64,000 nt of DNA from Deinococcales bacterium (GTDB taxonomy: Bacteria > Deinococcota > Deinococci > Deinococcales > JAAFIG01), in the NCBI GenBank assembly GCA_013298595.1, contig JAAFIG010000002.1, positions 78,781-142,780 of the forward strand, in the 5' to 3' direction. The translations under genes and the position numbers were made by a program. The notes under the pieces are model-generated. The model was given only the letters and a program-made list of their open reading frames with translations. It was not told the origin of the DNA and did no database searches. This document shows positions 3,383-26,780 of the stretch, piece by piece. Numbering within the stretch: the stretch's first letter is position 1; each line of letters begins with the position of its first letter.

Positions 3383-3397
3383 CTTATGAGCTATTGA

Positions 3398-13469: not shown

Positions 13470-13543
13470 AATATATACCACTTCGCAAAACTATTTCACT
13501 TAAAACTCGAATCAAGTCTATTAAACCTGACGGAGCGTTGAGT

Positions 13544-14239
13544 ATGAAAATCCGCATATCATACCGAGATATCCATGAGCAATATCATACTGAATTACCC
13601 CTCGAGCAATTACCAGTAATTGAACAACTACGATGGATACGACAAGAATGGTCACACAGTAAGCAAAACCACACCCCGTTAATGTTTTATTTCTCGAGCT
13701 TAAAACGATTAGTCTACTGTGAAAGCTATTTAGAAGCACAAACACTGCTGGATCTCGATTTTCGAGGTGAAACAAATTGTATCGTTGAACAACCATTTAT
13801 CTTACATTACAACAAGAAATTTCATATCCCCGATTATGTTCTACGGCAAGGTTTTACAACCATATTGATCAATGTTAAACCAAAAAAATTTCTTGAAACT
13901 CCAGAGAATATTACTGATTTTGCATTGGCATCTGAAGCAGCGCGGCAATTGGGCTGGATGTACCAAACTGTATCAGAATGCAATCCACAATATCTCGAAA
14001 ATATCAATTGGTTAGGTTCATTTAAGCACAGACCGTTTCAAGTTGAAACTTATGAAGTTGAGATTCTGAAGTATCTGAACCAATCATCAACGCTGCTCGA
14101 GTTGCTTAAACATTTCAAAAACGATTTCATCGTAAAACCAATAGTTTTCTATTTACTGTGGCATCGGCGTATTCAAACCAGTTTAGATCAGCGATTCTCA
14201 TTGCAAATGCCGTTATGGAAATCAACGGAGTATTCATGA
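13544..14239 (+). CDS. tnsA: TnsA-like endonuclease
   Basis: GGAG RBS. Restriction-endonuclease-like motif series CESYLE ... HIPDYVL ... ILINVKP (compare Tn7 TnsA E63/D114/Q130-x-K132). First gene of the tns operon. Its stop overlaps the tnsB ATG (ATGA). Confidence 0.75.
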   Translation: MKIRISYRDIHEQYHTELPLEQLPVIEQLRWIRQEWSHSKQNHTPLMFYFSSLKRLVYCESYLEAQTLLDLDFRGETNCIVEQPFILHYNKKFHIPDYVLRQGFTTILINVKPKKFLETPENITDFALASEAARQLGWMYQTVSECNPQYLENINWLGSFKHRPFQVETYEVEILKYLNQSSTLLELLKHFKNDFIVKPIVFYLLWHRRIQTSLDQRFSLQMPLWKSTEYS

Positions 14240-16314
14240 ATAAGTGGAACTTAGAGATTAACAATCTATATTTATGGTGTGATGAACACGTCAAACTAAT
14301 GCGATTTGTCAATCAACAAGTAATCCTCGAACGTGAAAATGGTCAAGTCATAACTATGAAGACTTCTGAATTCGTCAGTAAATATCCTATACCAGTCAAT
14401 GCTGATCCCTCCTTGATCATACAGCCAACGCCATCAATTTTTGACAATATCTCTAAATCAGCTCTTAAACAAGTTGACGTATTACAAGCTCACCTCGAGA
14501 TTGCAATTCACGGTATCGAACCAATGAATGAAAGTGAAACATGCTACGATGCAGAGTTAACCACGTTAACGTGTCGGATGAAAAAAAAGGCAGAAGAACT
14601 GAAAATGGATTTAAGCTCTTTCTGGCGAAAGAAAAAAAAGTATGAGCGATTTGGGCGATATGGTTTAATAGATCGTCGTTCATTACCGCTAGCACGCAGT
14701 AAACGCAATGATTCAGACCCAGTAGTCTTAACAATTGAAAAAGTACTGAAACAAACTATTGGTGCTTCTGATGTAACGAATATAATTCTATATAGAAAAA
14801 TCAAGAAACTATTGATACAAGACTATGGTGATACAGTCTCATTGCCATCGGTTGCGACGCTAAACAGATTATTAGCAGAAATAAGGCATCGATTAGGGAT
14901 ATATGGTAATGCTAATCAGCGTCAAAAATCTGCGCTAACACCTAAAAAACTATTTGGTTCTTTTCGTTCTACACACCCAGGGCAACTGGTAATGTTCGAT
15001 AGTACAAAACTTGATATGTTTGCACTCGACCCAATGAATAACGATTGGATTCAAGTTGCTTTGACTATTGCCTTTGATTTTTATTCTCGTTCAATTATTG
15101 GCTGGCGGTTCACACCTGTAGATACTAAAGGAGTAGATGCAGCTTTAGTTTTGTTTGATGTATTACATCCAAAAATTGCAATGCCAGATTGGGCAGATAT
15201 TGCTCATTGGAATTATTTTGGAGTACCAAGTGATATTCGCATTATTGAATACACCAATGATGATTCAAGCATACAGATTGCAGCTGTGCCATTTGTACAA
15301 CCAGATACAGTACTAATCGATCATGGCAAGGTTTTTATCTCGCATACATTTCAAGATGTTTGCACAAGACTTGGTATTCATATTCAACGAGCGCGTATCC
15401 GTCGTCCAACGGATAAATCGCCAGTAGAGAATGTATTTAAGCATATATCTCAGGATTTTTGTCAGCGATTGCCTGGATATAAAGGGCGCAGTATTGCTAC
15501 TAGAGGCATAGACATTGAAAAGAAAGCTTTTTATTACATTGAAGAAATCGATACGCTTTTTGCTGAATGGGTTGCGACTAAGTGGCAAAATCACATACCA
15601 AGATCGTTGCATTATCCTGCATCAGGAGCCGTTGAAGCTGATGTAACCCCTAATGATGCTTATACATTAGGTTTAACCCAAACTGGTTTTATACCGATAC
15701 CAAATCTGGTTTACTTCGATTGTCTTGAGACCGAATACCGTATTGTTAGTGAAAGTGGAATTACCATTCAATACCTTGAGTATGACAGTATTGAACTCGA
15801 GCCATTTCGTAATTATCCATCCGAGATTAGATCAGGCATTCATAAAGGAGATTATAGGATCAAAGCTGACCCACGAGACCGTAGTCAAATTTTTTTCTTC
15901 GATGAAATCCGCAAAACATGGATCACTATTCCGTGGCGTGGAAAACAGCATTTTTCACATCCATTTAGCGATCTAACACTTGCTTTTGCAAAAGCAACAG
16001 CCATTGAACATTTACATGGAAAAAAACCAACTAATGACGAAATTCGTTTTGCTTTGGAGGAAATGTATTCGCGTTGGGAGGCGAAAGAGTTTAGAACTCG
16101 CCGAGAGCGTCGTGTTGCTGCTCGAGATAAAATCCTAACCCAGCAAGCCCAAAAAGATCGTCTGCAAAAAAGTAAATCTACAGCATTAAATACTATTCCA
16201 GCAGCTGAGTTGAATCAATCAAATCAACCAATGATTCCAGAAGATATTAACGGTATTTTCAAGCGTTTTGACCAAATTAAAAGCTTGTATCAGGAGGATG
16301 ATGATGAGTTCTAA
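14236..16314 (+). CDS. tnsB: TnsB-like DDE transposase
   Basis: rve-type DDE triad context (LVMFDSTKLD, TVLIDHGKVF, DKSPVENVFKH). About 690 aa, with a Mu/Tn7-type architecture and an acidic C-terminal tail (YQEDDDEF). Confidence 0.85.
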   Translation: MNKWNLEINNLYLWCDEHVKLMRFVNQQVILERENGQVITMKTSEFVSKYPIPVNADPSLIIQPTPSIFDNISKSALKQVDVLQAHLEIAIHGIEPMNESETCYDAELTTLTCRMKKKAEELKMDLSSFWRKKKKYERFGRYGLIDRRSLPLARSKRNDSDPVVLTIEKVLKQTIGASDVTNIILYRKIKKLLIQDYGDTVSLPSVATLNRLLAEIRHRLGIYGNANQRQKSALTPKKLFGSFRSTHPGQLVMFDSTKLDMFALDPMNNDWIQVALTIAFDFYSRSIIGWRFTPVDTKGVDAALVLFDVLHPKIAMPDWADIAHWNYFGVPSDIRIIEYTNDDSSIQIAAVPFVQPDTVLIDHGKVFISHTFQDVCTRLGIHIQRARIRRPTDKSPVENVFKHISQDFCQRLPGYKGRSIATRGIDIEKKAFYYIEEIDTLFAEWVATKWQNHIPRSLHYPASGAVEADVTPNDAYTLGLTQTGFIPIPNLVYFDCLETEYRIVSESGITIQYLEYDSIELEPFRNYPSEIRSGIHKGDYRIKADPRDRSQIFFFDEIRKTWITIPWRGKQHFSHPFSDLTLAFAKATAIEHLHGKKPTNDEIRFALEEMYSRWEAKEFRTRRERRVAARDKILTQQAQKDRLQKSKSTALNTIPAAELNQSNQPMIPEDINGIFKRFDQIKSLYQEDDDEF

Positions 16315-17464
16315 ACCTAACTTGGAAGGTTTTGGCAACAATGAAACTGAAATGTATTTAGAAGAAGCTCCTATTTCGGAAATCAACAATTTTGATGAAT
16401 GGCTTCATTTTGTTTACGAACCAATATCAATTCGTCCCGATGTACCTACGCCCATAGAGTTTGCCGAAATGAGTCAAAAACAGAAAAAAAATTCGTGTAC
16501 ATTGCGTTTTCAGCATATTGCACGATTTCAACCGATTTCTACGACATCACGGAATAAAATCATTGATACCTTACTGCAGAGACTTCATGTGAACCGTATT
16601 GGAGGTCGTGGTGCTCGAGGAAGCGCTGTATTAACGGGCTACCCTTACATTGGAAAAACAACAATAGCTGTGGATATTGGCAGACGCTATGATCTTGATA
16701 TGCGGAAACTTCTCAAAAAGAGAACAGGTCAAGAACTTTTTATTCCAGAAACAAATGATCGCTTTATCCCTGTAATTTATGTGTGTTTAAGCAGCGAAGA
16801 TGTCTCCAACCTGAAAGCGTTGTATGCAACTTTTGCTCGATTCTTAGGTATACCAAAATATGAAAAAAAGACAACCAAACAACTCGAAGATGCTGTTGTT
16901 AAATGGGCGAAAGCTTGTCAAACAAGTTTTATCATCGTAGACGAAATTCATTATATTGATATTCGTTCGCGTGGTGTACGAAAAACCAATAATGCTATTA
17001 AAACACTGATGAATCGAATTCCTGCCACATTTTTATTCGCTGGGATTGAGTGTGAAAACACAGGAATCTTTTTTGACCATGACAGTGATCAAAAACGTAA
17101 AGCTGACCCAAGATTAGCGCAATTAAATCATCGCTGCTTAAAACTCGAACTAAAACCGTTTCAAAGTCTTTATGGTAATTATCAAGAAGGTATCAAACTT
17201 ATCAATACAATTGACCAAGAAATCGTACTAGTGAATCATCAAACAGGCGATTTGGTTCAACTAGCACCTTATATTCTAGCTAGAACAAATGGTCATATTG
17301 GAAGTATTCGGGATTTTATTTCACTAGGGTGTTATAAGGCTTTAAAAGAGAAAACCGAACGTCTCACCAAAGAGATATTAGAAGAAATTCAGCTTGATAA
17401 CGCGGCTGAAACAGCTTATCAAAATTATTTGGCAAGCAATCCACCCGCCCTCGAGACATACTAA
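16298..17464 (+). CDS. tnsC: TnsC/TniB-like AAA+ ATPase
   Basis: AGGAGG RBS inside the tnsB 3' end. Walker A GYPYIGKTT and Walker B FIIVDEIHY. Confidence 0.85.
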   Translation: MMMSSKPNLEGFGNNETEMYLEEAPISEINNFDEWLHFVYEPISIRPDVPTPIEFAEMSQKQKKNSCTLRFQHIARFQPISTTSRNKIIDTLLQRLHVNRIGGRGARGSAVLTGYPYIGKTTIAVDIGRRYDLDMRKLLKKRTGQELFIPETNDRFIPVIYVCLSSEDVSNLKALYATFARFLGIPKYEKKTTKQLEDAVVKWAKACQTSFIIVDEIHYIDIRSRGVRKTNNAIKTLMNRIPATFLFAGIECENTGIFFDHDSDQKRKADPRLAQLNHRCLKLELKPFQSLYGNYQEGIKLINTIDQEIVLVNHQTGDLVQLAPYILARTNGHIGSIRDFISLGCYKALKEKTERLTKEILEEIQLDNAAETAYQNYLASNPPALETY

Positions 17465-17477
17465 GCCTACGAGTCTT

Positions 17478-18626
17478 ATGAATAATCAACATCATCCACT
17501 CAACCGCCAATTTCCAAAGCGTGCCAATCTTAAAGCTGGTAATGCGTTGATTCCCCAATTGATCGAACTGGCTCGAGATTTGGAAATTACAACAGAAGAC
17601 TTATCAGCATTTCTCGAGGTCAGATTTGGGTTGGTACAAACAGCATTTGATCGTTTGCCATTCTTGACAACTCGAGAAATGGAGCAACTAGCACATGAGT
17701 TCGGCGTTTCAGTGCAAACGATAGAAGAAACCACCGCAGCCTATTTCTCGAGCAGAATTGGTACATCTCAGGATTCTGAACTACAGGAGCTTTTAGTTCC
17801 CTTTACCAAACGTCTTAAAGTATGCCCAAAGTGCCTACAAGAAAAACAAAACTACCAACTATCTTGGCAAGTTTCGTGGTCTTTTGTCTGTACTCGACAT
17901 CACGTTTTGCTCCAAGATATTTGTCCACACTGTGAGTATCCAATCGCTTCTAAACGTCGCACAACAGGCATTCCTGTTGAACATTTCCGCTGCGGTAATC
18001 ACATTGTCAACCAAAGTGTTTGCCATGAACGACTGGATCAACTTCCTCGAGTCTCTGTGGCAAACTACCCCGCAATTCTGAAAGCCCAAAATATTCTTGA
18101 AGCTGTTATCAATGGTAAATCGGTTTTGATATTTAACCAAACGGTTGTTCCGAAAGTGTTCTTGCAGAATTGTATTGCACTTCTTAAAATTCTTTGGGGA
18201 TTTATTGTGCCAGAACAGTTAGCCTCGGCTCCAATCAAATGCACAGGTGCATACCATCAATTTACCCGCGCTCGAGAAAAATATTTTCAATACCTCGAGC
18301 AGGAAAATCCGCTCGAGGACTCACCTGCTGCTATTTCTAGGCTTTGGGGAACACTTGATTTGATGACTGGCACAATGCCTTTGGTTTTAGAGATTCTTGC
18401 TTTATCCTCGAGACAAGCTATGGTGAATAGACTGATTGCCCTGATACAACAAAGCTGTTATCAAAGACCCCAATACCCACTTTGGATTTTGCAACACTTT
18501 GAACGACAAGCCATTGAAAATCACCATTGGATGTACACAATTAAGGAGTTGCAAAATTGGCTTAGAAGGACGTACTTTTTAAGAAAGGAGGTAGTGGCGC
18601 ATGTACCAAACCCTTATCCACTTTAA
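17478..18626 (+). CDS. tniQ: TniQ-family target-selection protein
   Basis: TniQ zinc-ribbon pattern CPKCLQEK...VCTRHHVLLQDICPHCEYPI. At 382 aa it is small-TniQ sized, like Cascade-associated TniQ. Its 3' end overlaps cas6 by 26 nt. Confidence 0.8.
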   Translation: MNNQHHPLNRQFPKRANLKAGNALIPQLIELARDLEITTEDLSAFLEVRFGLVQTAFDRLPFLTTREMEQLAHEFGVSVQTIEETTAAYFSSRIGTSQDSELQELLVPFTKRLKVCPKCLQEKQNYQLSWQVSWSFVCTRHHVLLQDICPHCEYPIASKRRTTGIPVEHFRCGNHIVNQSVCHERLDQLPRVSVANYPAILKAQNILEAVINGKSVLIFNQTVVPKVFLQNCIALLKILWGFIVPEQLASAPIKCTGAYHQFTRAREKYFQYLEQENPLEDSPAAISRLWGTLDLMTGTMPLVLEILALSSRQAMVNRLIALIQQSCYQRPQYPLWILQHFERQAIENHHWMYTIKELQNWLRRTYFLRKEVVAHVPNPYPL

Positions 18627-19173
18627 TCCTTCCTCTCCTCATGCTCAACGATTGCTAGACCAACCTTACCGAATCCACTACATGCTCGAGCATATTAATA
18701 CAAGTAGAACGCGAATATTATGGCGTTTAAGCGAAGATCGATTGCTAGTTAGGCATATTAACCCTCTTGACTGGACTGAACTTGATAAAACGCATCCAAG
18801 CCTTGGAGATAGAAGTCATACACAGGTGAACTTAGATTTGCCTTTGGGAACAATTCACCTGTTCAACTTGTTCGCGTTTATTTGTAAGCCAGATGACAAC
18901 GGAAAATGGAAAGTACAACAACCCAAACAGTATATTGATTGGCTTATTAAGCGTTCCAAACACATTGGTTTTGAATTACGTGAGATCCAAATCAACAAAG
19001 CCCCTGATCACTTTGTCCGAATGAACAGCGCTCAAATTAGAGCGCAGCCAATGAAGGTATCTGGAATTTTACAAATTACAGATACAACTGCCTTAATACA
19101 TAGTTTGGAAAGTGGAATAGGAAGGATGCGTGCTTATGGTTGTGGAATGTTAATATTGCAACCAATTGGATAA
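18601..19173 (+). CDS. cas6: Cas6e (CasE)-like crRNA endoribonuclease
   Basis: N-terminus MYQTLIHF...PYRIHYML (CasE has MYLSKV...LYQLHQGLW). C-terminus SGILQITDTTALIHSLESGIGRMRAYGCGMLILQP, against E. coli CasE EGVLTINDAPALIDLVQQGIGPAKSMGCGLLSLAP. Confidence 0.85.
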   Translation: MYQTLIHFNPSSPHAQRLLDQPYRIHYMLEHINTSRTRILWRLSEDRLLVRHINPLDWTELDKTHPSLGDRSHTQVNLDLPLGTIHLFNLFAFICKPDDNGKWKVQQPKQYIDWLIKRSKHIGFELREIQINKAPDHFVRMNSAQIRAQPMKVSGILQITDTTALIHSLESGIGRMRAYGCGMLILQPIG

Positions 19174-19193
19174 ATACTTAGAAACTTTATAAT
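19166..19193 (+). promoter_or_regulatory. Sigma70-type promoter for the CRISPR array
   Basis: TTGGAT (19166-19171), a 16-nt spacer, then TATAAT (19188-19193), about 25 nt before repeat 1. It overlaps the cas6 stop. Confidence 0.5.
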
Positions 19194-19218
19194 AGTGAAG
19201 TTTTGTCTGTTTCAAGCC

Positions 19219-19600
19219 GTTCTGCCCTCACGTGTAGGGGTCATCCGTAATTGCTGTAGTTGAAGTAAGAATTCTTGTAGTTCTTTCCTTACGTGTAGGG
19301 GTCATCCGCGAAACAGCTCTACAAAAACCATTGTTCCGCGTTCTTCTCTCACGCGTAGGGGTCATTCGGCGACGAACAGGTTTGATTTTCCAGATTCTTG
19401 AGTTCTTCCTTCATGTGTAGGGGTCATCCAATGTGAATAGAGTCATTGCACATATGTTACCGCGTTCTTCCCTCATGTATAGGGATCATCCGAAAGGAGT
19501 TGTGGAACGCCAAACCTCTTTCGGTGTTCTTCCCTCACGCGTATGGGTTATTCGGCTGCATCTAGCATCGTGTATTTCTCTCACGTATAGGGATCATCCA
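19219..19600 (+). CRISPR. CRISPR array, 7 x 29-bp type I-E-like repeats, 6 spacers (32, 31, 33, 33, 33, 17 bp)
   Basis: R1 GTTCTGCCCTCACGTGTAGGGGTCATCCG (19219). R2 GTTCTTTCCTTACGTGTAGGGGTCATCCG (19280). R3 GTTCTTCTCTCACGCGTAGGGGTCATTCG (19340). R4 GTTCTTCCTTCATGTGTAGGGGTCATCCA (19402). R5 GTTCTTCCCTCATGTATAGGGATCATCCG (19464). R6 GTTCTTCCCTCACGCGTATGGGTTATTCG (19526). R7 GTATTTCTCTCACGTATAGGGATCATCCA (19572). Confidence 0.9.
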
Positions 19601-19673
19601 GCACAAACACGAGTTCAAGTTTCATTGGGTACTTTTCTTTTCGTGAGAATCACTCTCTTCTAAGGTCTACAAC

Positions 19674-20858
19674 ATGAATCTACTATTTGATGCTTGGATT
19701 CCAACAACAAATTCACTTCAATCCCTTGTTTCAGTTCTTGAGAATGCAAATTCTTTGCAGCTTTTTTCTCGAGGAACTCAATTTGCTTCTATTTTGCGGT
19801 TGCTGCTGGCGATTTGTTATCAAAGTGGTGAAACCAGTCAAACATTAATACGAAATGGCATTAGTAATAAAACATTTAAGCATCTCGAGCAGTACAAAAA
19901 CGCTTTTGATCTTCATCATGGTTTTTTGACTTGCCCAGACCTTGATGCCGATTTGAGCACCATGGCAAAATTGATTCCGTTGTTACCTTCGGGCAATACC
20001 ATCGTTTTTTTTAATCATGCTCGAGATGATCAATTTCCCATTGTTTCTAGCGACGAACTAGCTCGTTATGTCCTTGATTATCATGCTTTTGCTGCCGCAG
20101 GAGGTCAAAGTGTAACTGGTTATCGTGGGCTTAGCCCTTGTGTTGATGTGGTTCTTGGGATAGCAATTGGAGAAACTCTACTCGAGACACTCGCCCTTAA
20201 TTTAGTACCTGATTCGCGTCTGCAAAGCGCAAGCTGGACACTTTCTCGAGTCACTAAACAAGATTTTCAAGATAATAGACGGCAGACAGCTGGAAGTCTC
20301 GCAGGGCAGTATTCATGGCTTGGGCAAGCAGTTCGGTTATTTGAGCATGGTGTTGGTACAGCCAAAGGCTTTAAATTACGCTTTGACTCTGACCCGATGA
20401 TGAGCAAAAAGATTGATCGAAATGGTCAACTAATAAGCTTTGTGCGTCCAGAGTCATTTGAGCCTATTCTTTTAGCTGCTCGACTGATGGGTTTGCAGTC
20501 TATTTGTGCAGCAACTTTTTCACATGCACAAAGTTTGGATATTCCTTTCCAGTGGCGAGTCATTTCGCAAGTCAGTTCTCCAACCCACAAAGTCAAAGTG
20601 CTTGAAACGATTGATTCGGTGTATTCACCACAAACCCTAGACCTTCAAACATTAGCTCGAGTTCTTGCCATTCGAGGCGAATTGGTAAAACACCAGTCTG
20701 AATTTGTGGCTCGAGCTTTTGTGTCTACTTTTGAGGATTTTTTAAGACTTAACCAAACTATTGAACTTGATTCGTTTGTAGAACAATACCCTTTTCAAAC
20801 GGATAATAAATTACTGGGGATACTTCGCAAATTAACTCGGAAGGCAATAGGTGAATAA
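19674..20858 (+). CDS. cas8: Cas8e (Cse1/CasA)-like large subunit, shortened (394 aa)
   Basis: N-terminus MNLLFDAWIPTT, against E. coli Cse1 MNLLIDNWIPVR. It sits immediately upstream of cas7 (3-nt gap). Confidence 0.7.
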   Translation: MNLLFDAWIPTTNSLQSLVSVLENANSLQLFSRGTQFASILRLLLAICYQSGETSQTLIRNGISNKTFKHLEQYKNAFDLHHGFLTCPDLDADLSTMAKLIPLLPSGNTIVFFNHARDDQFPIVSSDELARYVLDYHAFAAAGGQSVTGYRGLSPCVDVVLGIAIGETLLETLALNLVPDSRLQSASWTLSRVTKQDFQDNRRQTAGSLAGQYSWLGQAVRLFEHGVGTAKGFKLRFDSDPMMSKKIDRNGQLISFVRPESFEPILLAARLMGLQSICAATFSHAQSLDIPFQWRVISQVSSPTHKVKVLETIDSVYSPQTLDLQTLARVLAIRGELVKHQSEFVARAFVSTFEDFLRLNQTIELDSFVEQYPFQTDNKLLGILRKLTRKAIGE

Positions 20859-20861
20859 TTT

Positions 20862-22085
20862 ATGCTCATTGAAATCCACTGTATTCAATCGGTCCCTATA
20901 TCTCACTTGAATTCTGATAGAAATGGTCAACCCAAGACAGTCATGTACGGCGGTGTTCTTCGTGCCCGAATCTCGAGTCAAGCTCAAAAACGCAGTTTAA
21001 GGCTCTTTATTCATGAGCATGGGCTTTTAGATGTGCTGGATTTCGCGTATCGAACAAGGCGTTTTACGCAACTGGCTGCTGAAAAACTTGAAAAATTAGG
21101 TATACAGCAAACAGAAGCCCTAAATTTGGCAGTTCGTTCGATGGCTGCCCTCAAGCTTGGGCATAAAGAAAAAGCTAATGAGGATGACCCTGTACTGAAC
21201 GAATTCTTGATCTTTTTTTCAGAGTCAGAATTACAAGCGTTTGCCAATACAATTTATGAGCATCAGTCTGTAATCTCGAGAATCAACATGGATGTCCATA
21301 AAGAACTCGATGCTATAGACGCAGTTGAAGGCGAGAAGAAAAAACAAAAATCCAGTAAGTTGACCAAGGCTGAAATCAAATCGGCAATCAAAAAAGAATT
21401 CCCACTTGAGGTGATTAAAGCCCTACAAAACCCCTTTATTGAAACTCGTTCTCTTGAAATGAATTTATTGGGGCGGCAACTCACCAACTTTCCTGATGGT
21501 ACAGTAGATGGGCAAGTTCAAGTCGCCCATGCTTTTTCCGTGGATGAAAGTCGTACCACACAAGACTTCTTTACTGCTGTTGATGATTATGCCTTTAAGG
21601 GCATGACAAAAGTAGGTATGCTTGAAGAGATTGGCTTCAATGCACCAACACTATATCGTGTGGCTGCGGTTAACGTCTCTCAGCTTGCTGAAGCTTCTGG
21701 CGATCTTGCCGCTGCCAAACGCGGGGCTGCCGCTTTTTTAGAGGCATTTGTGTCCACATTAGCGCACGGTGGGCAAAACTCTTTTCTCAGCCTTACTGTT
21801 CCGAGTTTTGTATTGATCCAAATCGTTGATAAAGGTCATGCTTTATCGTATGCCCCAGCGTTTCTTAAACCTGTCCAAAGCAGCAAAGAGTTCAGCACTG
21901 CTGAGGCTGCTATTGTGCAGTTATCCCGATACATTGAATACCAAGAGGCTGCTTTTCCTCGATTTAAGCGTTCACACAAAGTATTTTTTAGTCAAACAGA
22001 TCAAGATTTCAAAGGTGCTAAACGAGTCATCGGAATTGACCAAGCAATCAAATTTATTCTAGGCAAAATCGGGGATGAAAAGTGA
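20862..22085 (+). CDS. cas7: Cas7e (CasC)-like backbone subunit
   Basis: IHCIQSVPISHLNSDRNGQPKTVMYGGVLRARISSQAQKRSLR, against CasC [50 protein letters not shown]...VDGQVQVAHAFSV....QDFFTAVDD, against LSGRMAT...VDGAMSIAHAITT....IDWFTAVDD. Confidence 0.85.
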   Translation: MLIEIHCIQSVPISHLNSDRNGQPKTVMYGGVLRARISSQAQKRSLRLFIHEHGLLDVLDFAYRTRRFTQLAAEKLEKLGIQQTEALNLAVRSMAALKLGHKEKANEDDPVLNEFLIFFSESELQAFANTIYEHQSVISRINMDVHKELDAIDAVEGEKKKQKSSKLTKAEIKSAIKKEFPLEVIKALQNPFIETRSLEMNLLGRQLTNFPDGTVDGQVQVAHAFSVDESRTTQDFFTAVDDYAFKGMTKVGMLEEIGFNAPTLYRVAAVNVSQLAEASGDLAAAKRGAAAFLEAFVSTLAHGGQNSFLSLTVPSFVLIQIVDKGHALSYAPAFLKPVQSSKEFSTAEAAIVQLSRYIEYQEAAFPRFKRSHKVFFSQTDQDFKGAKRVIGIDQAIKFILGKIGDEK

Positions 22086-22573
22086 AACAGGTTCGTCTTT
22101 GTTTGGAAGGTCTACTGCAAGCATGGGGCGTGGATAATGCGCTTCAGCGTCGCCGTACTCATAACCAACCGCAACGACGAACCGTTTTTGGATTGATTCG
22201 GGCTGCAAAAGGACTCAAACGACATGAATCTTGGGAAGCTCTCGAGACACTTGATTTCAAGTGTGAAATCCATAAAGCTGGGTATCGAATGTGGGATTTT
22301 GCTTCTATGTCTAATATTATTCGTGCCAATGGTGAAGGCATTCAAGACCAAGCTATTCAAGAAAAAGAGTATCTGGTTGATGCAGCATTCATAGTCACCC
22401 TAACAGGCAAAGATCAACTCATTGATGAAGTCATTGCCGCTCTCGAGGATCCTGTTTTCCTTTTAGGGCTTGGAAGGCGCGATTGTATGCCAACACAACC
22501 AATTTTGTCGAATTATGATGTTGAGATTGATTTAGTCAAAATGTCAAAGAAAGCCAAAACGTACACCATATAG
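22082..22573 (+). CDS. cas5: Cas5e (CasD)-like subunit, shortened (163 aa)
   Basis: GTG start overlapping the cas7 stop (GTGA). LCLEGLLQAWG...PQRRTVFGLIRAAKGL, KEYLVDAAFIVTL and LGLGRRDCMPTQP, against CasD LRLAGPMQAWG...PTRSGLLGLLGACLGI, REYLCDASFTVAL and YLGRRSCPLTHP. Confidence 0.8.
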   Translation: MKQVRLCLEGLLQAWGVDNALQRRRTHNQPQRRTVFGLIRAAKGLKRHESWEALETLDFKCEIHKAGYRMWDFASMSNIIRANGEGIQDQAIQEKEYLVDAAFIVTLTGKDQLIDEVIAALEDPVFLLGLGRRDCMPTQPILSNYDVEIDLVKMSKKAKTYTI

Positions 22574-22875
22574 TGTAAAACTCAAACTATCTAGATCACA
22601 CACTAGTGCCAATAAAGTCTTGATAGACCTAAATGCCGCTCAAAAGCCAGTATCCAAGTAGTCTGAGATAAGCCTGTTTTTAGAGGAAGATGAACTTCAG
22701 TCTGAAAGACCAAGAAAACGTAAACGAGCAAATTGAACAGGAAATTTTCTACGAGAAGTTGAAGTTTTCCTTAACCCCAAGACACACCTTATGAGTTAAG
22801 TAGGGGACTACAACCAAATGTTTGATGAGGAAGTTTATTCGCAGAATTGCTTTTGAGAATTAGAGCACTTAAAAT

Positions 22876-23166
22876 CTAACCACTACTGCTTTTTCGAGGT
22901 CGTTTATTGCTTGGGAATGGCATTACCAGTTCTTTTGCACTTGGCAAAGCTAATAGCTTTGCAATTGGTATCTGGAGCTGAGTGGATACTTGCATGATTG
23001 TCTCGAGGGAGGGATTGGTGCGTTTGGCATTTTCAGACTCAAGTATTTGGTATGTTCGCAAGGGTAAACCAATCAATTCGGATGCTTCTTCTTGGGATAA
23101 GCCTTTTTTTAACCGAGCTTTACGAATTCGGAGTCGAAAAGCTCGGAGGAAAGCAGCGTCAAACAC
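22876..23166 (-). CDS. XRE-family helix-turn-helix regulator
   Basis: LRIRKARLKKGLSQEEASELIGLPLRTYQILESE is a typical HTH_3 motif. It is divergent from the 23408 operon. Confidence 0.8.
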   Translation of the reverse strand: MFDAAFLRAFRLRIRKARLKKGLSQEEASELIGLPLRTYQILESENAKRTNPSLETIMQVSTQLQIPIAKLLALPSAKELVMPFPSNKRPRKSSSG

Positions 23167-23407
23167 AATGCTATGCTGCTCATTTTTATGGTATTTTGTA
23201 ACGATTCAAATTATGTCATAAAATAATCTGAGTTAAAATCTTGATTTGTCCCCAAGCACACAAATATGTTACAGTCCTTAAACCAAGCCAAACACATCAC
23301 CCAGATGTACAGGCAAAAGCTTTCCCAAAAGGTTCGCAACAGCTTCGCCCCTTCCAACGGGCAACAACCGAAGCTGTTGTTTTTATTTTCCCAAGGAGAC
23401 AAGCTCA

Positions 23408-23992
23408 ATGCCAAACACTCTCGAGACCAACAACCCCGATTATGAAGTACAAATCAACCAGCAATACCATGCTTTTCTGGTCTGTAACGTCTTCATTAAC
23501 GATTCTGGACGTGGTAAACAAGTACAAATCATCATCGAAGGTAAAGCTTACAAAGCTGTTGTCAGTGTTGAAGCATTACGTGTATCACCAAATTTAACTG
23601 GTCAATGGCGAGCTACTTTGCACATTCGTTGTAAACCCGATGGCACACTAGACAAAACCATGTCCCTAAGACGAATTCGGGCATTAAGCCCACAAACTAC
23701 TGATCAACCTGCTTTCTGGGCTTGTACAGGTGATGTTACCAGTATTGATGTAAAAACAGGCTTACTCAAAGTTCGTATTTATCCTGGTAGACGCAAAGCC
23801 AGTGTTTTTTCCTTATTCGTTCAAGCCAGTCCTATTGTGCTCGAGCAAATTTCCCAAGCGAAATTTGTGCATCTAACAGGAACACTCGAAAAGCATTCAT
23901 TGGTTGTGCAACATTTTGAACCTCGAGATAGTGTTGATGCTGTCTTACAGGGTTTGAATGAGATTGAATCTGACAGGAGCAGTCATAAATGA
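23408..23992 (+). CDS. Hypothetical protein, paralogue A of a duplicated pair
   Basis: Shares an ordered motif series with the next gene: YH.F(L/F)V, G.WRATL, FW...G.V, (V/I)R(I/V)YP, (F/Y)VH(L/M)TG..E...L.(V/A)Q..EP. No family recognised. Confidence 0.6.
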   Translation: MPNTLETNNPDYEVQINQQYHAFLVCNVFINDSGRGKQVQIIIEGKAYKAVVSVEALRVSPNLTGQWRATLHIRCKPDGTLDKTMSLRRIRALSPQTTDQPAFWACTGDVTSIDVKTGLLKVRIYPGRRKASVFSLFVQASPIVLEQISQAKFVHLTGTLEKHSLVVQHFEPRDSVDAVLQGLNEIESDRSSHK

Positions 23993-24705
23993 AATCTAAT
24001 ACAGTAGAAACACCAGTACTTCAATCCTTAGTAACTATCCCTGTTCTCAAGCCAAAAGGTTTGAACATCGCATATCAACATCATTTCTTTGTCCAAACCA
24101 ATATCACCATCAGAGACACCAGTCAAGCAACTCGAGTCTGGTTAGACCTAGACTCTGATAATGGTTCATTCCTAGCTCGAGTGCATTCTAAAGTCTTTGC
24201 ACAATGGCAAAAATCACATCCAGAGCAAAGCTCGGTCAATCTTTCTGGTGTATGGCGAGCCACTTTGTATGGTCAAACAATGCCAAATCAGTCCCTCAAG
24301 TCCTTACAGATAATTCGATTAACTCCTCTCGAGAATGCCATTGATCTGAATGGACAAAGTACCTTCTGGAGTGCAGCAGGTAAAGTCCTACGCTTAGACC
24401 GAGCTGAACGCATTGTAATCATTCGGGTGTACCCAAGAACCAAAGGGTTTGAACCATTTGTGATCAGTGCTAAAACCACCCTCGAGTTACTGAACCTAGT
24501 TCAAGATGCCTGGTATGTGCATATGACAGGTGTAGTTGAACAAGGGTACTTAATTGCTCAGAACCTCGAGCCAATGCGTTTAGATATTCCAAGCGTGTGG
24601 AAAGACTGGATTCCACCAAGTAAACGCAAAGTCATACTCGAGAATACCTTAAACAGTGAATCCAGTGACTCTTCATTGGATGCTGGTACAAATCTTGGAT
24701 TTTAA
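23989..24705 (+). CDS. Hypothetical protein, paralogue B of a duplicated pair
   Basis: ATGA overlap with the preceding gene, and the same motif series as 23408..23992. Confidence 0.6.
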   Translation: MKSNTVETPVLQSLVTIPVLKPKGLNIAYQHHFFVQTNITIRDTSQATRVWLDLDSDNGSFLARVHSKVFAQWQKSHPEQSSVNLSGVWRATLYGQTMPNQSLKSLQIIRLTPLENAIDLNGQSTFWSAAGKVLRLDRAERIVIIRVYPRTKGFEPFVISAKTTLELLNLVQDAWYVHMTGVVEQGYLIAQNLEPMRLDIPSVWKDWIPPSKRKVILENTLNSESSDSSLDAGTNLGF

Positions 24706-24710
24706 GGGGT

Positions 24711-25187
24711 ATGAGAATGAAACAAGCCTTAGTTTATCTTCAAGTCTTACAAAGTATCTTTGTTGTGGTTAATCGAATAAATACTCGAGCTAATGCAGTA
24801 ATGAACGTAGTGCACGTGGCATGGGAATTTTACTTAGCTATGCCAACACAAGATTTAGCGTTAGACGTGATTCATTTAGTGACGGTGCAAACAAGGAATT
24901 ATCGACAGGTGACCTATGGTATTTCAGTGCAAGAAATGAATCTAAATGTAGTAGAAAAACACTCAGTCGAATTTGCAAGGGATCTCGAAGAAGCGCTACT
25001 GACTTGTGTAACTCTTTTTGAATCTGACCAAGCTACTTCTGGTTTACGGCAAGTTAAAAGAAAGATCAAAATGAGTTTCGTGCTTAATGAACAATGCCAA
25101 TGGACTTTTAAGCACGCTTCTCAGCAAAGTAAAAGTGATTTATTACAAATTCTTGAATTTAGCATCAACCCCAAGGTTATCAAATGA
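24711..25187 (+). CDS. Hypothetical protein (158 aa)
   Basis: 6-nt gap after the preceding gene, and its stop overlaps the next ATG (ATGA). No motifs recognised. Confidence 0.5.
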   Translation: MRMKQALVYLQVLQSIFVVVNRINTRANAVMNVVHVAWEFYLAMPTQDLALDVIHLVTVQTRNYRQVTYGISVQEMNLNVVEKHSVEFARDLEEALLTCVTLFESDQATSGLRQVKRKIKMSFVLNEQCQWTFKHASQQSKSDLLQILEFSINPKVIK

Positions 25188-25516
25188 TGCGTGGTAAACC
25201 TGCTTACACATCGGAATTCAAACTCCGTATGGTTAAAGAAGTACTCGAGCAAGGTAAAAGACCCAGTGCCGTAGCTCGAGAACATAAGATTCTGGCTTCC
25301 ACATTGTTTTCTTGGCGGGCTTTGTATGAACGGTTCGGTGAAGCTGCGTTTACAATGGTTGAGCAAAGCAGTTTACTTGAGGTGGAGAACATCAATTTGC
25401 AAAAGCAACTCGAGCGATTAAAATCTCAGGAGATCGTTTTTGAGCGGTTACTGGGCAAAATGACGCTCGAGAATCATCGGTTGCGAGAACAATTAAGTCT
25501 GCGCCTATCTGTGTAA
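25184..25516 (+). CDS. IS3-family OrfA-like HTH/coiled-coil protein (no OrfB follows)
   Basis: YTSEFKLRMVKEVLEQGKRPSAVAREHKILASTLFSWRALYERFGE is the classic IS3/IS911 OrfA HTH_Tnp_1 pattern, followed by a leucine-zipper-like tail. No DDE OrfB or IS inverted repeats are visible downstream. Confidence 0.7.
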   Translation: MMRGKPAYTSEFKLRMVKEVLEQGKRPSAVAREHKILASTLFSWRALYERFGEAAFTMVEQSSLLEVENINLQKQLERLKSQEIVFERLLGKMTLENHRLREQLSLRLSV

Positions 25517-25630
25517 CAGTACAAATACCACAGCTCCAAAAGATAGCAATTGTTACTTTAGTAACAGTAAATAGGAGGAAGTTATAACATTTGGGTGAAT
25601 TAGGAGACTACGTCAAATACAGTATTTAGG
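25513..25630. repeat. Three spaced ACAGTA-AATA motifs (candidate TnsB-binding sites, right end)
   Basis: GTAACAGTACAAATAC (25513), TAGTAACAGTAAAT (25559) and CAAATACAGTATTTAGG (25614). The reverse complement of the second (ATTTACTGTTACTA) matches ATTTACTTGTACTA at 13447-13460 in 12 of 14 positions. Confidence 0.35.
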
Positions 25631-25644
25631 CAACTCTTACATAA

Positions 25645-25803
25645 TTTGATTCAAATCACTCTTATATGCAATGATTTGTGATGAATATACATTGTGTTTA
25701 ACGTAGATGGCAGTTACAGATTAAATGATTTTCTATAATGTTATAGAAAATCATTTGATCTGCAACTAAATCACTGTATATAAGAGTGACTTGAGAGTAA
25801 ATC
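25645..25803. repeat. Long imperfect palindrome (inner 22-bp arms, outer arms with an ~35-bp asymmetric insert)
   Basis: Inner arms: CAGATTAAATGATTTTCTATAA (25717-25738), tg, TTATAGAAAATCATTTGATCTG (25741-25762), with 1 mismatch. Outer arms: TCACTCTTATAT (25656-25667) against ATATAAGAGTGA (25778-25789). Confidence 0.8.
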
Positions 25804-25823
25804 AAGCTACTTGAGAGTAAAAC
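25789..25823. repeat. Tandem 20-bp-period direct repeat at the candidate right terminus
   Basis: ACTTGAGAGTAAATC (25789-25803) and ACTTGAGAGTAAAAC (25809-25823). Read on the other strand, the terminus is TGTTTTACTCTCAAGT followed by TGATTTACTCTCAAGT. Confidence 0.6.
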
Positions 25824-25859
25824 AAAGTTAAAACTACCATTTCCTTTGCCATCAATCTC

Positions 25860-26780
25860 TTAATCACGTGGGTAAAGTAGTTTTGCAGTTGCAATCCATC
25901 CCTCACGGGCACTTGGATACTTTGGAACCCAGCCAGTTGCAATGCAAAAGCGTTTGTTACTCACGCGTAATGACCATGTAAGTGACGTTGAACGATCACC
26001 AAGCAGTAATGCTGCTCGTCCAGGAACGCGTAACCAAGCTGTTTTACCAGCAGCGGCTGCAAGTGCATTGGCATATTCACGCTTTTGTAAAGGTTCATCA
26101 TCAACGATATTGTACGTTCCCGCTGCTACATTTAAAGCTGCGACTACAGCTGTATCTGCGTCGCTCACGTGAATAGATGACACGTATCCGTTAGGCGATC
26201 CCATTTGTACACAGATATGATGGCGAGCCAATGCCAAAAATTCTTCGCTGTGTTTTGCGCCCGGTCCGTAAAACCAACCAAACCGTAATACAACACCTAT
26301 GCTTCCACTGGTTGTAAAACGATTTGCATTTGCTTCGGCAGCCAGATTAGCTCGAGCCATTGGATACTGGTCCGTTGGCATAGCCTCGTCAATCCAAGCT
26401 GAACCATTATCTGGATAAAGCATGCTGACCGACTCTTGGATAACTCGAGTAACACCTGCGGCAAGGGCAGCATCTACGATGGCGGTTGAACCTTCGACTC
26501 GAACTTTTTCGTTTGCAACCCAAGCATTTGAATTCATAAACTGAGCTGTCGGTGGAATAGCAGAGGTTAAGTTGATAACTGCGTCTTGCCCTTTAAACAC
26601 TTTGGTCAAGGCTGACCTGTCAAACACGGATACATTGACTGCTTTTGCGCCTTGAAGCTCGAGCATGGCGGCTTTTTCTGATGTTCGTGCCAGTGCAGTG
26701 ACTGTATGCCCAGCATCAATGAGTGCTTGAGTGGCATATTTACCACTTGCACCTGTGCCACCAGCAATGAATACCTTCAT
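25860..26780 (-). CDS. NAD(P)-binding SDR/NmrA-like oxidoreductase
   Basis: MKVFIAGGTGASGKYATQALIDAGHTVTALART is a Rossmann GxxGxxG motif. About 306 aa. Confidence 0.8.
   Translation of the reverse strand: MKVFIAGGTGASGKYATQALIDAGHTVTALARTSEKAAMLELQGAKAVNVSVFDRSALTKVFKGQDAVINLTSAIPPTAQFMNSNAWVANEKVRVEGSTAIVDAALAAGVTRVIQESVSMLYPDNGSAWIDEAMPTDQYPMARANLAAEANANRFTTSGSIGVVLRFGWFYGPGAKHSEEFLALARHHICVQMGSPNGYVSSIHVSDADTAVVAALNVAAGTYNIVDDEPLQKREYANALAAAAGKTAWLRVPGRAALLLGDRSTSLTWSLRVSNKRFCIATGWVPKYPSAREGWIATAKLLYPRD

What the first reader, a model, noticed from the sequence alone, without database searches (positions are those of the whole stretch)
18601..22573. Stripped-down I-E Cascade: no Cse2/Cas11, shortened Cas8e and Cas5e, and a rearranged gene order
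Canonical E. coli I-E Cascade has Cse1 (502 aa), Cse2 (160 aa), Cas7 (363 aa), Cas5 (224 aa) and Cas6e (199 aa), in the order cse1-cse2-cas7-cas5-cas6 with the array after cas1-cas2. Here Cas8 is 394 aa, Cas5 is 163 aa (C-terminally short), Cas7 is 407 aa (longer) and Cas6 is 190 aa.

No separate small-subunit gene exists; cas8 and cas7 are only 3 nt apart. cas6 has moved upstream of the array, next to tniQ. The loss of the small subunit and trimming of the large subunit parallel the reductions seen in I-F3 CAST (a Cas8/5 fusion with no Cas11). They may mark the surfaces that were remodelled to dock TniQ.
Basis: partly seen in the sequence, partly recalled or inferred. Interest (0 to 1): 0.6.

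Follow-up and report, generated by a model that had tools for sequence, protein, structure and literature searches.

The report
Cas11-less type I-E Cascade in transposon
This is a pared-down type I-E CRISPR complex with no Cas11/Cse2 subunit, carried by a Tn7-like transposon that appears to use it to choose insertion sites, and related elements that keep, fuse or lack Cas11 make that subunit's role directly testable.

Summary
Window 18601-22573 encodes Cas6e (190 aa), a 7-8-repeat I-E array, Cas8e (394 aa), Cas7e (407 aa) and Cas5e (163 aa). It follows tnsA-tnsB-tnsC-tniQ directly. No cse2 exists in any frame of the 64 kb window, and cas8 has no plausible internal start.

- **Short Cas8e and Cas5e are older than the transposon association.** The nearest non-transposon relatives (L010, L012) already have Cas8e of 393-427 aa and Cas5e of 175-188 aa. 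They keep a separate cse2, and L012 has the canonical gene order.
- **Cas11 loss is not a family-wide trait.** Sister elements keep cse2 as a separate gene (L007, L018) or fuse it to Cas8e (534-556 aa proteins, e.g. L003). Only the window's subclade lacks it, which looks like a single loss.
- **cas6 next to tniQ is specific to the transposon-borne loci.**

The Cas11-less complex appears to work. In L001, L004 and L005 the last spacer matches a site just upstream of tnsA. Each site has an AAG PAM, and a conserved end motif starts about 55-62 bp beyond it.

The held literature describes no TniQ-containing Tn7-like I-E CRISPR-associated transposon (CAST). I rate it a new variant of a known kind. 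The window copy itself lacks its tnsA-proximal end and may be immobile.

The parts
13538..14239 (+). tnsA-like endonuclease gene (233 aa)
   Evidence: NCBIfam NF033179 TnsA_like_Actin, 116.4 bits against a cut-off of 110. Weak Pfam TnsA N/C hits.
14158..16314 (+). tnsB transposase gene (718 aa)
   Evidence: rve integrase core hit. Orthologous to the TnsB-position gene in all related loci.
16268..17464 (+). tnsC AAA+ ATPase gene (398 aa)
   Evidence: Pfam TniB 2.5e-11 and AAA_22 5.9e-12.
17394..18626 (+). tniQ gene (410 aa), overlapping cas6e by 26 nt
   Evidence: Pfam TniQ 1.4e-12. Coordinates.
18601..19173 (+). cas6e gene (190 aa), placed upstream of the array next to tniQ
   Evidence: Pfam PF08798 1.7e-27. 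TIGR01907 casE 51.7 bits against a cut-off of 45.2. Same position in all transposon-borne relatives. It is last in the operon in the non-transposon relative L012.
19219..19600 (+). CRISPR mini-array: seven 29-nt I-E-type hairpin repeats, with spacers of 32, 31, 33, 33, 33 and 17 nt. The last repeat (19572-19600) is atypical.
19601..19632 (+). Terminal 'homing' spacer. It resembles the 3' end of tRNA-Glu(CTC).
   Evidence: Conserved in L001 with 2 mismatches. It matches the tRNA-Glu that lies next to the L001 element, which has an AAG PAM.
19633..19661 (+). Degenerate terminal repeat after the homing spacer
   Evidence: Read directly from the sequence. The hairpin is weak or uncertain. The L001 counterpart folds into a 6-bp hairpin.
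19674..20858 (+). cas8e/cse1 gene (394 aa): compact large subunit with a mini helical bundle at residues 324-389
   Evidence: Pfam Cse1 9.8e-26. AF2 pLDDT 95.4 and pTM 0.94. Foldseek top hits are all Cse1, e.g. 4an8 at E 1.7e-19 and TM 0.72.
20862..22085 (+). cas7e gene (407 aa) with a variable Lys-rich insertion at about residues 137-179
   Evidence: Pfam 6.5e-74. TIGR01869 193.6 bits against a cut-off of 178. Insertion mapped against T. fusca Cse4 and against relatives.
22082..22573 (+). cas5e gene (163 aa), lacking about the last 65 residues of canonical CasD
   Evidence: TIGR01868 76.7 bits against a cut-off of 68.95, matching profile positions 5-162 of 230. Aligns to E. coli CasD 7-158 of 224 and T. 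fusca Cas5e 6-148 of 254.
22876..23166 (-). Xre-type HTH regulator gene (96 aa); first cargo gene
   Evidence: PHROG transcription-regulator hits down to 2.5e-6. An HTH_26 gene sits at the same position in L001.
23408..25516 (+). Cargo genes: two paralogous tandem-OB-fold proteins (orf194 at 23408-23992, orf238 at 23989-24705), orf158 (24711-25187) and an HTH_Tnp_1 protein (25184-25516)
   Evidence: AF2 pLDDT 82.3. Foldseek best hit is D. radiodurans SSB at E 6e-6. The module also occurs outside these transposons.
25656..25737 (-). Transposon end distal to tnsA: inverted copies of the terminal 17-mer and of an internal 22-mer
25742..25830 (+). A second, tnsA-proximal-type end copy. It abuts the other end head-to-head with a 4-bp gap and is not followed by tns genes.
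   Evidence: 87% identical over 60 nt to the end upstream of tnsA in L001. Motif hits.

Best explanation
The segment encodes the RNA-guided targeting module of a Tn7-like CRISPR-associated transposon (CAST). It is a minimal type I-E Cascade built from Cas6e, Cas8e, Cas7e and Cas5e plus crRNAs from a mini-array. It has no Cas11/Cse2, no Cas3 and no Cas1-Cas2.

**Likely mechanism**
- Cas6e cuts the 29-nt hairpin repeats and stays on the 3' hairpin.
- Cas5e caps the 5' handle, about six Cas7e coat the 32-33-nt guide, and the compact Cas8e reads an AAG PAM.
- TniQ is encoded overlapping cas6e. It is inferred to dock at the Cas6e, PAM-distal end and recruit TnsC and then TnsA/TnsB.
- The element is inserted with its tnsA-proximal end roughly 55-60 bp beyond the PAM-distal end of the protospacer.

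**How the complex became so small**
1. A compact I-E lineage arose with a ~390-430-aa Cas8e and a ~175-190-aa Cas5e. No cas3 was seen near it. It still had a separate cse2.
2. A Tn7-like element captured it, and cas6 moved next to tniQ.
3. In one subclade cse2 fused to cas8e, apparently twice. In the window's subclade it was deleted once.

**Shown:** gene identities, absence of cse2, the distribution of Cas11 states among relatives, and spacer-target-end geometry with AAG PAMs in Cas11-less relatives.

**Inferred:** complex stoichiometry, TniQ docking at Cas6e, and what replaces Cas11 in stabilising the R-loop. Candidates for the last are the Cas8e mini-bundle, TniQ/TnsC, or no replacement at all.
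For: - **Gene identities and lengths:**
- **No cse2 in six frames:** window, best E 1.4. Also none in L001, L004, L005, L006 or L017. No internal start in cas8. The C-terminal mini-bundle is not Cse2-like.
- **Conserved architecture:** tnsA-tnsB-tnsC-tniQ-cas6e-[array]-cas8e-(cse2)-cas7e-cas5e in the window, L001, L003/L008, L004, L005, L007 and L017, and on the partial contigs L006 and L018, which begin at tnsC.
- **Cas11 states in relatives:** a separate 148-aa cse2 in L007, 52% identical to the C-terminus of P0010. Separate in L018 and L019. Fused in P0010, P0011, P0012, P0014 and P0017, with a Pfam Cse2 hit at residues 434-549.
- **Non-transposon compact relatives with cse2:** L010, L011, L012.
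- **Tree:** the compact-Cas8e clade is monophyletic and the window subclade is nested within it.
- **Homing:** the last or second-to-last spacers match a plus-strand site upstream of tnsA. PAMs are AAG in L001, L004, L005 and L007, and AAA in L003. A conserved end motif starts about 55-62 bp after the protospacer.
- **Cas8e model:** pLDDT 95.4, and all top structural hits are Cse1.
Against: - No experiment. Complex assembly, DNA binding without Cas11 and transposition are all inferred.
- In the window copy, the tnsA-proximal end is missing from its expected place. Both ends instead lie head-to-head at 25721-25758. There is no tRNA gene in the window. This particular copy may therefore be rearranged and immobile.
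- Homing matches in L004 and L005 carry 8 mismatches.
- Cse2 is considered necessary for stable dsDNA binding by canonical I-E Cascade (review PMC5965380). How this complex does without it is unexplained.
- Only 64 kb of the genome was visible, so a cse2 elsewhere cannot be excluded.
- The tree is neighbour-joining without bootstrap support.
Confidence: 0.75

Rival explanations
1. Cas11 function is still present but supplied from outside the operon. One source would be a resident canonical I-E system elsewhere in the genome. The other would be an unrelated protein carried by the element, such as the tandem-OB-fold proteins orf194/orf238, which could hold the displaced DNA strand.
For: - Canonical Cse1 genes occur in the same bacterial order: L009 is a 513-aa Cse1 in a Deinococcales MAG.
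- orf194-family genes are present in all five Cas11-less loci where downstream sequence was checked (window, L001, L004, L005, L006). They are absent from the Cas11-fused L003.
- orf194 is a tandem OB fold whose best structural match is D. radiodurans SSB.
Against: - The Xre-HTH plus orf194-like module also occurs outside these transposons, next to Tn3 transposases, CBASS genes and metal-resistance genes (L013, L015).
- In L005 and L006 it lies 4-5 kb from cas5, and on the opposite strand in L005.
- The five loci form one clade, so the co-occurrence amounts to a single evolutionary event.
- A canonical Cse2 would have to fit a Cas8e and Cas7e that are only ~20-25% identical to canonical ones.
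Confidence: 0.12
2. The Cas11-less operon is a decaying, non-functional remnant, and the missing cse2 is simply gene loss in a dead element.
For: - The window copy lacks a tnsA-proximal end upstream of tnsA and has abutted ends at 25721-25758.
- Its repeats are heterogeneous and one spacer is only 17 nt.
- An IS element interrupts the array of L001.
- cas7 appears split in L017.
Against: - All eight tns and cas ORFs in the window are full length.
- The Cas11-less state is shared by six loci whose Cas8e proteins are 45-83% identical, and their operons are intact apart from the apparently split cas7 in L017. This indicates long persistence under selection.
- Three Cas11-less elements sit at the expected distance from a protospacer that matches their own spacer and has an AAG PAM.
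Confidence: 0.1
3. A Cas11-like small subunit is made from within cas8e by internal translation initiation, as in type I-B, I-C and I-D systems.
For: The Cas8e C-terminus (324-389) is a small helical bundle. This is the kind of region that yields internal Cas11 products in other subtypes (background knowledge, not tested here).
Against: - There is no in-frame start codon with a Shine-Dalgarno-like sequence upstream of the bundle. The only SD-like hit precedes TTG337, which would give 58 residues.
- M242/M243 lie in the invariant DPM motif of the globular domain.
- The bundle is only ~70 residues and has no profile similarity to Cse2.
- Relatives with the same bundle still carry a separate cse2.
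Confidence: 0.03

Closest known systems
Canonical type I-E Cascade (E. coli, T. thermophilus, T. fusca; e.g. PDB 4TVX, 5H9F, 5U07)
   Same: - Cas6e, Cas7e and Cas5e score above the I-E equivalog cut-offs.
- Cas8e has the Cse1 fold, with TM 0.7-0.74 to Cse1 structures.
- 29-nt hairpin repeats and 32-33-nt spacers.
- AAG PAM at inferred targets in relatives.
   Different: - No Cse2 dimer, and no cas3, cas1 or cas2 found in the 64 kb window (the main ORFs were scanned against Pfam; the six-frame cse2 search is).
- Cas8e is ~108 aa shorter than T. thermophilus CasA. The N-domain is ~40 aa shorter. The four-helix bundle is reduced to ~70 aa.
- Cas5e lacks about the last 65 residues.
- cas6 sits before the array instead of last in the operon.
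Type I-F3 CAST (Tn6677/VchCAST type)
   Same: - Tn7-like TnsA/B/C plus TniQ with a Cas3-less Cascade and no separate small subunit.
- A short array whose last, atypical unit is a homing spacer.
- Insertion at a fixed distance beyond the PAM-distal end, with the tns-proximal geometry conserved.
   Different: - The effector is I-E, not I-F. There is no Cas8-Cas5 fusion.
- Gene order is tniQ-cas6-array-cas8-cas7-cas5 rather than tniQ-cas8/5-cas7-cas6-array.
- TnsA is of the 'Actinobacteria-type' family NF033179. Benler et al. describe a Tn7-like clade dominated by Actinobacteria transposons, none of which has been characterised experimentally (PMC8649781). Placing this element in that clade is my inference.
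Type I-E5 telomeric CAST of Streptomyces (Hsieh et al., Science 2025; bioRxiv 10.1101/2024.11.13.623437)
   Same: A type I-E Cascade genetically linked to TnsB/TnsC transposition genes and lacking Cas1-Cas2.
   Different: - That system has no TniQ and no TnsA. It keeps an active Cas3 and is telomere-associated.
- It is described as 'not a Tn7-like transposon'.
- The window element has TnsA and TniQ and lacks Cas3.
Compact type I-E loci without tns or cas3 genes in view, found here (L010, L011, L012)
   Same: They are the closest non-transposon relatives of the window Cas8e, Cas7e and Cas5e. Cas8e is 393-427 aa, Cas5e is 175-188 aa, and an array lies directly upstream of cse1 in L011 and L012.
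   Different: - They keep a separate cse2 of 142-169 aa.
- L012 has the canonical order cse1-cse2-cas7-cas5-cas6.
- No tns genes are seen in L010 or L012. The L011 contig is too short to tell.
Type I-E variant with Cas5-HNH (PDB 8YB6)
   Same: The best solved-structure sequence match for the window Cas5e (E 3.7e-18). That variant is also typically Cas3-less.
   Different: The window Cas5e has no HNH domain. In that system Cas8e is 535 aa.

Membership tests
Type I-E CRISPR-Cas effector (Cascade) | Cse1/Cas8e large subunit | tested here: met
   Pfam PF09481 at 91.3 bits against a cut-off of 24.7. Cse1 fold by AF2 and Foldseek. TIGR02547 scores below its cut-off (57.8 against 70.05).
Type I-E CRISPR-Cas effector (Cascade) | Cse2/Cas11e small subunit (signature gene) | tested here: not met
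   No hit in six frames of the window, best E 1.4. No internal start in cas8. The Cas8e C-terminus is not Cse2-like.
Type I-E CRISPR-Cas effector (Cascade) | Cas7e, Cas5e and Cas6e of the I-E families | tested here: met
   TIGR01869, TIGR01868 and TIGR01907 all score above their cut-offs.
Type I-E CRISPR-Cas effector (Cascade) | Cas3 helicase-nuclease and the Cas1-Cas2 adaptation module | tested here: not met
   Pfam scans of 37 of the largest ORFs across the 64 kb window gave no such hits. The genome outside the window was not visible.
Type I-E CRISPR-Cas effector (Cascade) | 29-nt hairpin repeats, ~32-nt spacers, AAG-type PAM | tested here: met
   Repeats and spacers. AAG PAM at 4 of 5 inferred targets in relatives. 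No target is present in the window itself.
Tn7-like CRISPR-associated transposon (CAST) | TnsB, TnsC and TniQ (plus TnsA) adjacent to a nuclease-free CRISPR effector | tested here: met
Tn7-like CRISPR-associated transposon (CAST) | A self-encoded spacer matching a site at a fixed distance outside one transposon end | tested here: met
   Met in relatives L001, L003, L004, L005 and L007. The window keeps the homing spacer but has no tRNA-Glu target.
Tn7-like CRISPR-associated transposon (CAST) | Two inverted ends with TnsB-site repeats flanking the element | tested here: inconclusive
   The distal end is present at 25656-25737. The tnsA-proximal-type end is not upstream of tnsA. It abuts the distal end at 25742-25830 instead.
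Tn7-like CRISPR-associated transposon (CAST) | RNA-guided transposition activity | not testable with these tools
   Requires reconstitution.
Type I-F3 CAST | Cas8f-Cas5f fusion with Cas7f and Cas6f | tested here: not met
   All subunits hit I-E models, and cas8 and cas5 are separate genes.
Type I-E5 telomeric TnsBC CAST | TnsBC only (no TniQ or TnsA), retains Cas3, array upstream of cas3 | tested here: not met
   TniQ and TnsA are present and Cas3 is absent. Definition taken.

The most novel reading that the evidence does not exclude
This is the first natural type I-E Cascade that works without any Cas11/Cse2. It serves as the targeting module of a previously undescribed, TniQ-dependent Tn7-like type I-E CAST family in Deinococcales. 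That family also contains members with a separate Cas11 and with a Cas8e-Cas11 fusion. Together they form a natural deletion series for asking what Cas11 contributes to R-loop locking and to the hand-off to the transposase.
Probability: 0.55. Interest if true: 0.8.

Novelty: new variant of a known kind. Interest (0 to 1): 0.7.

Why it matters
Cse2/Cas11 is a signature gene of type I-E. In the textbook model it forms the 'belly' that holds the displaced strand and locks the R-loop (PMC5965380).

A lineage that deleted it yet still shows correctly spaced, AAG-flanked homing insertions implies one of two things. Either target binding sufficient for transposase recruitment does not need Cas11, or TniQ/TnsC or the Cas8e mini-bundle take over that role. 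Close relatives carry Cas11 as a separate gene, as a fusion, or not at all, so the question can be tested directly by swapping parts.

On the practical side, this is a very small four-protein I-E effector (Cas6e 190, Cas8e 394, Cas7e 407, Cas5e 163 aa). It sits in a Tn7-like clade with no characterised CAST, which would add an orthogonal RNA-guided insertion system.

It also corrects an attractive but wrong inference. The compaction of Cas8e and Cas5e predates transposon capture. It goes with the absence of cas3 in the relatives examined rather than with TniQ docking.

Tried and rejected
- **Hidden cse2.** I searched all six frames of the window with a profile of the nearest Cse2 domains, filters off. 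The best E was 1.4. Rejected.
- **Internal Cas11 start in cas8.** No suitable start codon with a ribosome-binding site. The mini-bundle versus Cse2 profile comparison gave 0.4% probability. Rejected.
- **orf194/orf238 as a Cas11 substitute.** The AF2 model is a tandem OB fold resembling SSB. The module also occurs outside these transposons, next to Tn3 and CBASS genes. I treat it as cargo and keep the substitute idea only as a low-probability rival.
- **Lys-rich Cas7 insertion as compensation for Cas11 loss.** Insertion length varies. It is long in L011, which has cse2, and short in L003 and L010. There is no clean correlation.
- **tnsA-proximal end in the window.** No motif or local alignment was found upstream of tnsA. 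The rearrangement remains unresolved.
- **Targets of the other window spacers.** No matches in the window or the fetched loci, apart from chance-level hits for the 17-nt spacer.
- **Wider scans.** Metagenome and viral contig scans with the Cas8e alignment returned no further loci. The exact window protein had no encoding contig on record.
- **Rfam scan of 13000-26500.** Only sub-threshold hits, on the palindrome formed by the abutted ends.

Full report
**What is in the sequence**

The plus strand carries an uninterrupted run of genes:

| Gene | Coordinates | Length |
|---|---|---|
| tnsA-like | 13538-14239 | 233 aa |
| tnsB | 14158-16314 | 718 aa |
| tnsC | 16268-17464 | 398 aa |
| tniQ | 17394-18626 | 410 aa |
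| cas6e | 18601-19173 | 190 aa |
| CRISPR array | 19219-19661 | 7-8 repeats |
| cas8e | 19674-20858 | 394 aa |
| cas7e | 20862-22085 | 407 aa |
| cas5e | 22082-22573 | 163 aa |

Profile searches confirm every assignment.
- TnsA hits NF033179 at 116.4 bits against a cut-off of 110.
- TnsC hits TniB and AAA_22. TniQ hits PF06527 at 1.4e-12.
- Cas6e hits PF08798 at 1.7e-27 and TIGR01907 above its cut-off.
- Cas7e hits PF09344 at 6.5e-74 and TIGR01869 above its cut-off.
- Cas5e hits TIGR01868 above its cut-off.
- Cas8e hits PF09481 at 9.8e-26.

The array has seven 29-nt repeats of I-E type that fold into 5-bp hairpins. Spacers are 31-33 nt, plus one odd 17-nt spacer. A final spacer (19601-19632) follows, and then a degenerate terminal repeat.

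**Is Cas11 really absent?**

Yes, as far as sequence can show.
- I built a profile from the Cse2 domains of the closest relatives and ran it with all filters off against every stop-to-stop piece of all six frames of the 64 kb window. The best E-value was 1.4.
- The 3' half of cas8 has no in-frame start with a ribosome-binding site that would give a Cas11-sized product. M242/M243 belong to the invariant DPM motif of the globular domain.
- The AF2 model of Cas8e is very confident (pLDDT 95.4, pTM 0.94). It shows the Cse1 globular domain followed by four short helices at 324-340, 343-359, 365-371 and 378-389.
- All 21 significant PDB matches are Cse1 chains, with TM 0.6-0.74.
- This ~70-residue mini-bundle has no profile similarity to Cse2 (hhalign probability 0.4%).

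**What exactly is shortened**

- *Cas8e.* Against T. thermophilus CasA (502 aa), family profile positions 2-306 align to CasA 7-351. The N-domain is therefore about 40 residues shorter. The C-terminal bundle accounts for the rest of the ~108-residue deficit.
- *Cas5e.* It aligns to E. coli CasD 7-158 of 224 and to T. fusca Cas5e 6-148 of 254. It lacks roughly the last 65 residues. Its best solved-structure match is the Cas5-HNH of the HNH variant of I-E.
- *Cas7e.* It is longer because of a variable Lys-rich insertion at about 137-179, mapped relative to T. fusca Cse4.

**Relatives change the interpretation**

The Cas8e family is very rare.
- It has 16 hits among 5.8 billion proteins.
- It has 17 hits below 1e-30 among 1.84 billion cluster representatives. 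There is then a sharp drop to the ordinary ~500-aa Cse1 proteins.
- All hits in species-representative genomes are 'Deinococcales bacterium' MAGs.

Nine loci show the architecture tnsA-tnsB-tnsC-tniQ-cas6e-[array]-cas8e-cas7e-cas5e: the window, L001, L003 (the same sequence as L008), L004, L005, L007 and L017, plus the partial contigs L006 and L018, which begin at tnsC. The Cas11 state differs among the relatives.

| Cas11 state | Loci or proteins | Evidence |
|---|---|---|
| Separate cse2 (144-149 aa) directly after a 390-426-aa cas8e | L007, L018 (transposon-borne); L019 (contig too short to show tns genes) | L007 product is 52% identical to the C-terminus of P0010 |
| Fused Cas8e-Cse2 (534-556 aa) | L003; P0010, P0011, P0012, P0014, P0017 | Pfam Cse2 hit at 434-549 |
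| No cse2 in any frame | Window, L001, L004, L005, L006, L017 | |

Three relatives lie basal to the transposon-borne clade in a neighbour-joining tree of the Cas8e N-domain (no bootstrap).
- L012: array, cse1 (427 aa), cse2 (169), cas7, cas5 (188), cas6 (204), array. No tns, cas3, cas1 or cas2 in 14 kb.
- L010: cse1 (393), cse2 (148), cas7, cas5 (175). No tns genes upstream.
- L011: array, cse1 (393), cse2 (142), cas7 (409), cas5 (181).

Three conclusions follow.
- The short Cas8e and short Cas5e were inherited from a compact I-E lineage that still had Cas11 and, in the relatives examined, had no cas3 nearby.
- The move of cas6 to sit beside tniQ is the change specific to the transposon-borne loci.
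- Cas11 was lost once, in the window's subclade, and fused to Cas8e apparently twice in the sister subclade. In L007 cas8 and cse2 overlap by 13 nt, so a small indel would be enough to fuse them.

[quoted passage not shown] The trimming therefore fits relaxed selection after loss of Cas3 better than it fits TniQ docking. That reading is an inference.

**Evidence that the Cas11-less complex works**

In L001 (Cas8e 83% identical to the window's), the element lies just downstream of tRNA-Gln and tRNA-Glu(CTC).
- Its last spacer differs from the window's by 2 nt. It matches the 3' end of that tRNA-Glu at 2885-2917, on the same strand, directly after an AAG PAM.
- The L001 spacer has 5 mismatches to the tRNA (my count from the sequences). 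The window spacer has 7.
- The conserved terminal motif of the tnsA-proximal end starts about 57 bp beyond the protospacer.

The same geometry recurs with different targets.

| Locus | Cas11 state | Mismatches | PAM |
|---|---|---|---|
| L003 (target at the 3' end of an RtcB-family gene) | fused | 3 | AAA |
| L004 | absent | 8 | AAG |
| L005 | absent | 8 of 28 | AAG |
| L007 | separate | 6 | AAG |

Four AAG PAMs out of five, with consistent strand, side and spacing, cannot reasonably be chance. This is the signature of crRNA-guided homing, as in I-F3, I-B2, I-D and V-K CASTs. It holds in elements with and without Cas11.

**State of the window copy**

The window has no tRNA gene. The terminal 17-mer TATAGAAAATCATTTGA and the internal 22-mer occur only at 25656-25737 (inverted) and 25742-25830 (direct). 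The two ends therefore lie head-to-head with a 4-bp gap.

Nothing end-like lies in the 68 bp between a 953-aa TPR-containing ORF and tnsA. Abutted ends are what a second homing insertion at an occupied site would produce. Further deletions would be needed to explain the rest, and an assembly artefact is not excluded. The ORFs are intact, but this copy may not be mobile.

**Cargo**

Downstream of cas5e lie an Xre-type regulator (minus strand), two paralogous proteins (orf194 and orf238), orf158 and an HTH_Tnp_1 protein.
- orf194 models as a tandem OB fold (pLDDT 82.3). Its best match is D. radiodurans SSB at E 6e-6 and TM 0.42.
- The family is present in all five Cas11-less loci where downstream sequence was checked.
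- It also occurs, with its Xre neighbour, outside these transposons next to Tn3 transposases, CBASS genes and metal-resistance genes.
- I treat it as cargo. A role in holding the displaced strand is a low-probability idea.

**Comparison with what is known**

The 2025 CRISPR classification lists CASTs of types I-F3, I-B2, I-D, I-C, IV-A and V-K. It also lists a Mu-associated I-A system and I-E5. I-E5 is the Streptomyces telomeric TnsBC element, which lacks TniQ and keeps Cas3.

Rybarski et al. reported I-E Cascades near Rpn-like nucleases, not near Tn7 genes. Faure et al. 2023 and Benler et al. 2021 do not mention an I-E Tn7 CAST. Full-text searches found none.

Within the held library, then, a TniQ-dependent Tn7-like I-E CAST is undescribed, and so is a Cas11-less I-E effector. 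I cannot exclude a description in literature outside the library.

**Verdict**

The most likely function is RNA-guided transposon targeting by a four-protein I-E Cascade that lost Cas11 secondarily. I rate it a new variant of a known kind, with interest 0.7.

Noticed in passing
window 25721-25758 (context 25656-25830) and 13470-13537: The two transposon ends lie head-to-head with a 4-bp gap, while the expected end upstream of tnsA is missing. This could reflect a tandem homing insertion followed by deletions, another rearrangement, or a misassembly.
   Followed up: partly
window 19555-19600: A 17-nt 'spacer' separates repeat 6 from an atypical repeat 7. Together with the homing spacer and a degenerate terminal repeat, this looks like a separate atypical crRNA unit appended to the array.
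   Followed up: partly
window 23408-24705; L013 10001-10642; L015 10001-10603: orf194 and orf238 are paralogous tandem-OB-fold proteins resembling SSB. They belong to a small module with a divergent Xre-type regulator. The module also occurs next to Tn3 transposases, CBASS genes and metal-resistance genes. Its function is unknown.
   Followed up: partly
L012 4429-9290: A compact I-E locus (cse1 427 aa, cse2, cas7, cas5 188 aa, cas6) is flanked by two small arrays and preceded by an AcrVA2-like gene. No cas3, cas1 or cas2 lies within 14 kb. It may be another nuclease-free I-E variant of unknown role.
   Followed up: partly
L001 8848-9685: An IS element (DDE_Tnp_1 and DUF4096 genes) is inserted in the CRISPR array of the closest related element. 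The homing unit is left intact.
   Followed up: no
window 20862-22085, Cas7e residues ~137-179: A Lys-rich, low-complexity insertion in Cas7e varies greatly in length among relatives. Its length does not track cleanly with the presence or absence of Cas11.
   Followed up: partly
window 402-13469: Three RCC1-repeat proteins and a 953-aa TPR-containing ORF lie upstream of tnsA. Host genes at 3398-6485 are ~84% identical to genes that lie downstream of the L001 element, so local gene order differs between the two genomes.
   Followed up: no
window 22082-22573: The closest solved-structure sequence match of the short Cas5e is the Cas5-HNH of the HNH-bearing I-E variant (8YB6, E 3.7e-18). It scores better than canonical CasD. 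This hints that the compact lineage and the HNH lineage are related.
   Followed up: no
L017 10163-11582: cas7 appears split into 73-aa and 398-aa ORFs in this Cas11-less relative, and Cas5e is only 133 aa there. This could be a frameshift or further reduction.
   Followed up: no
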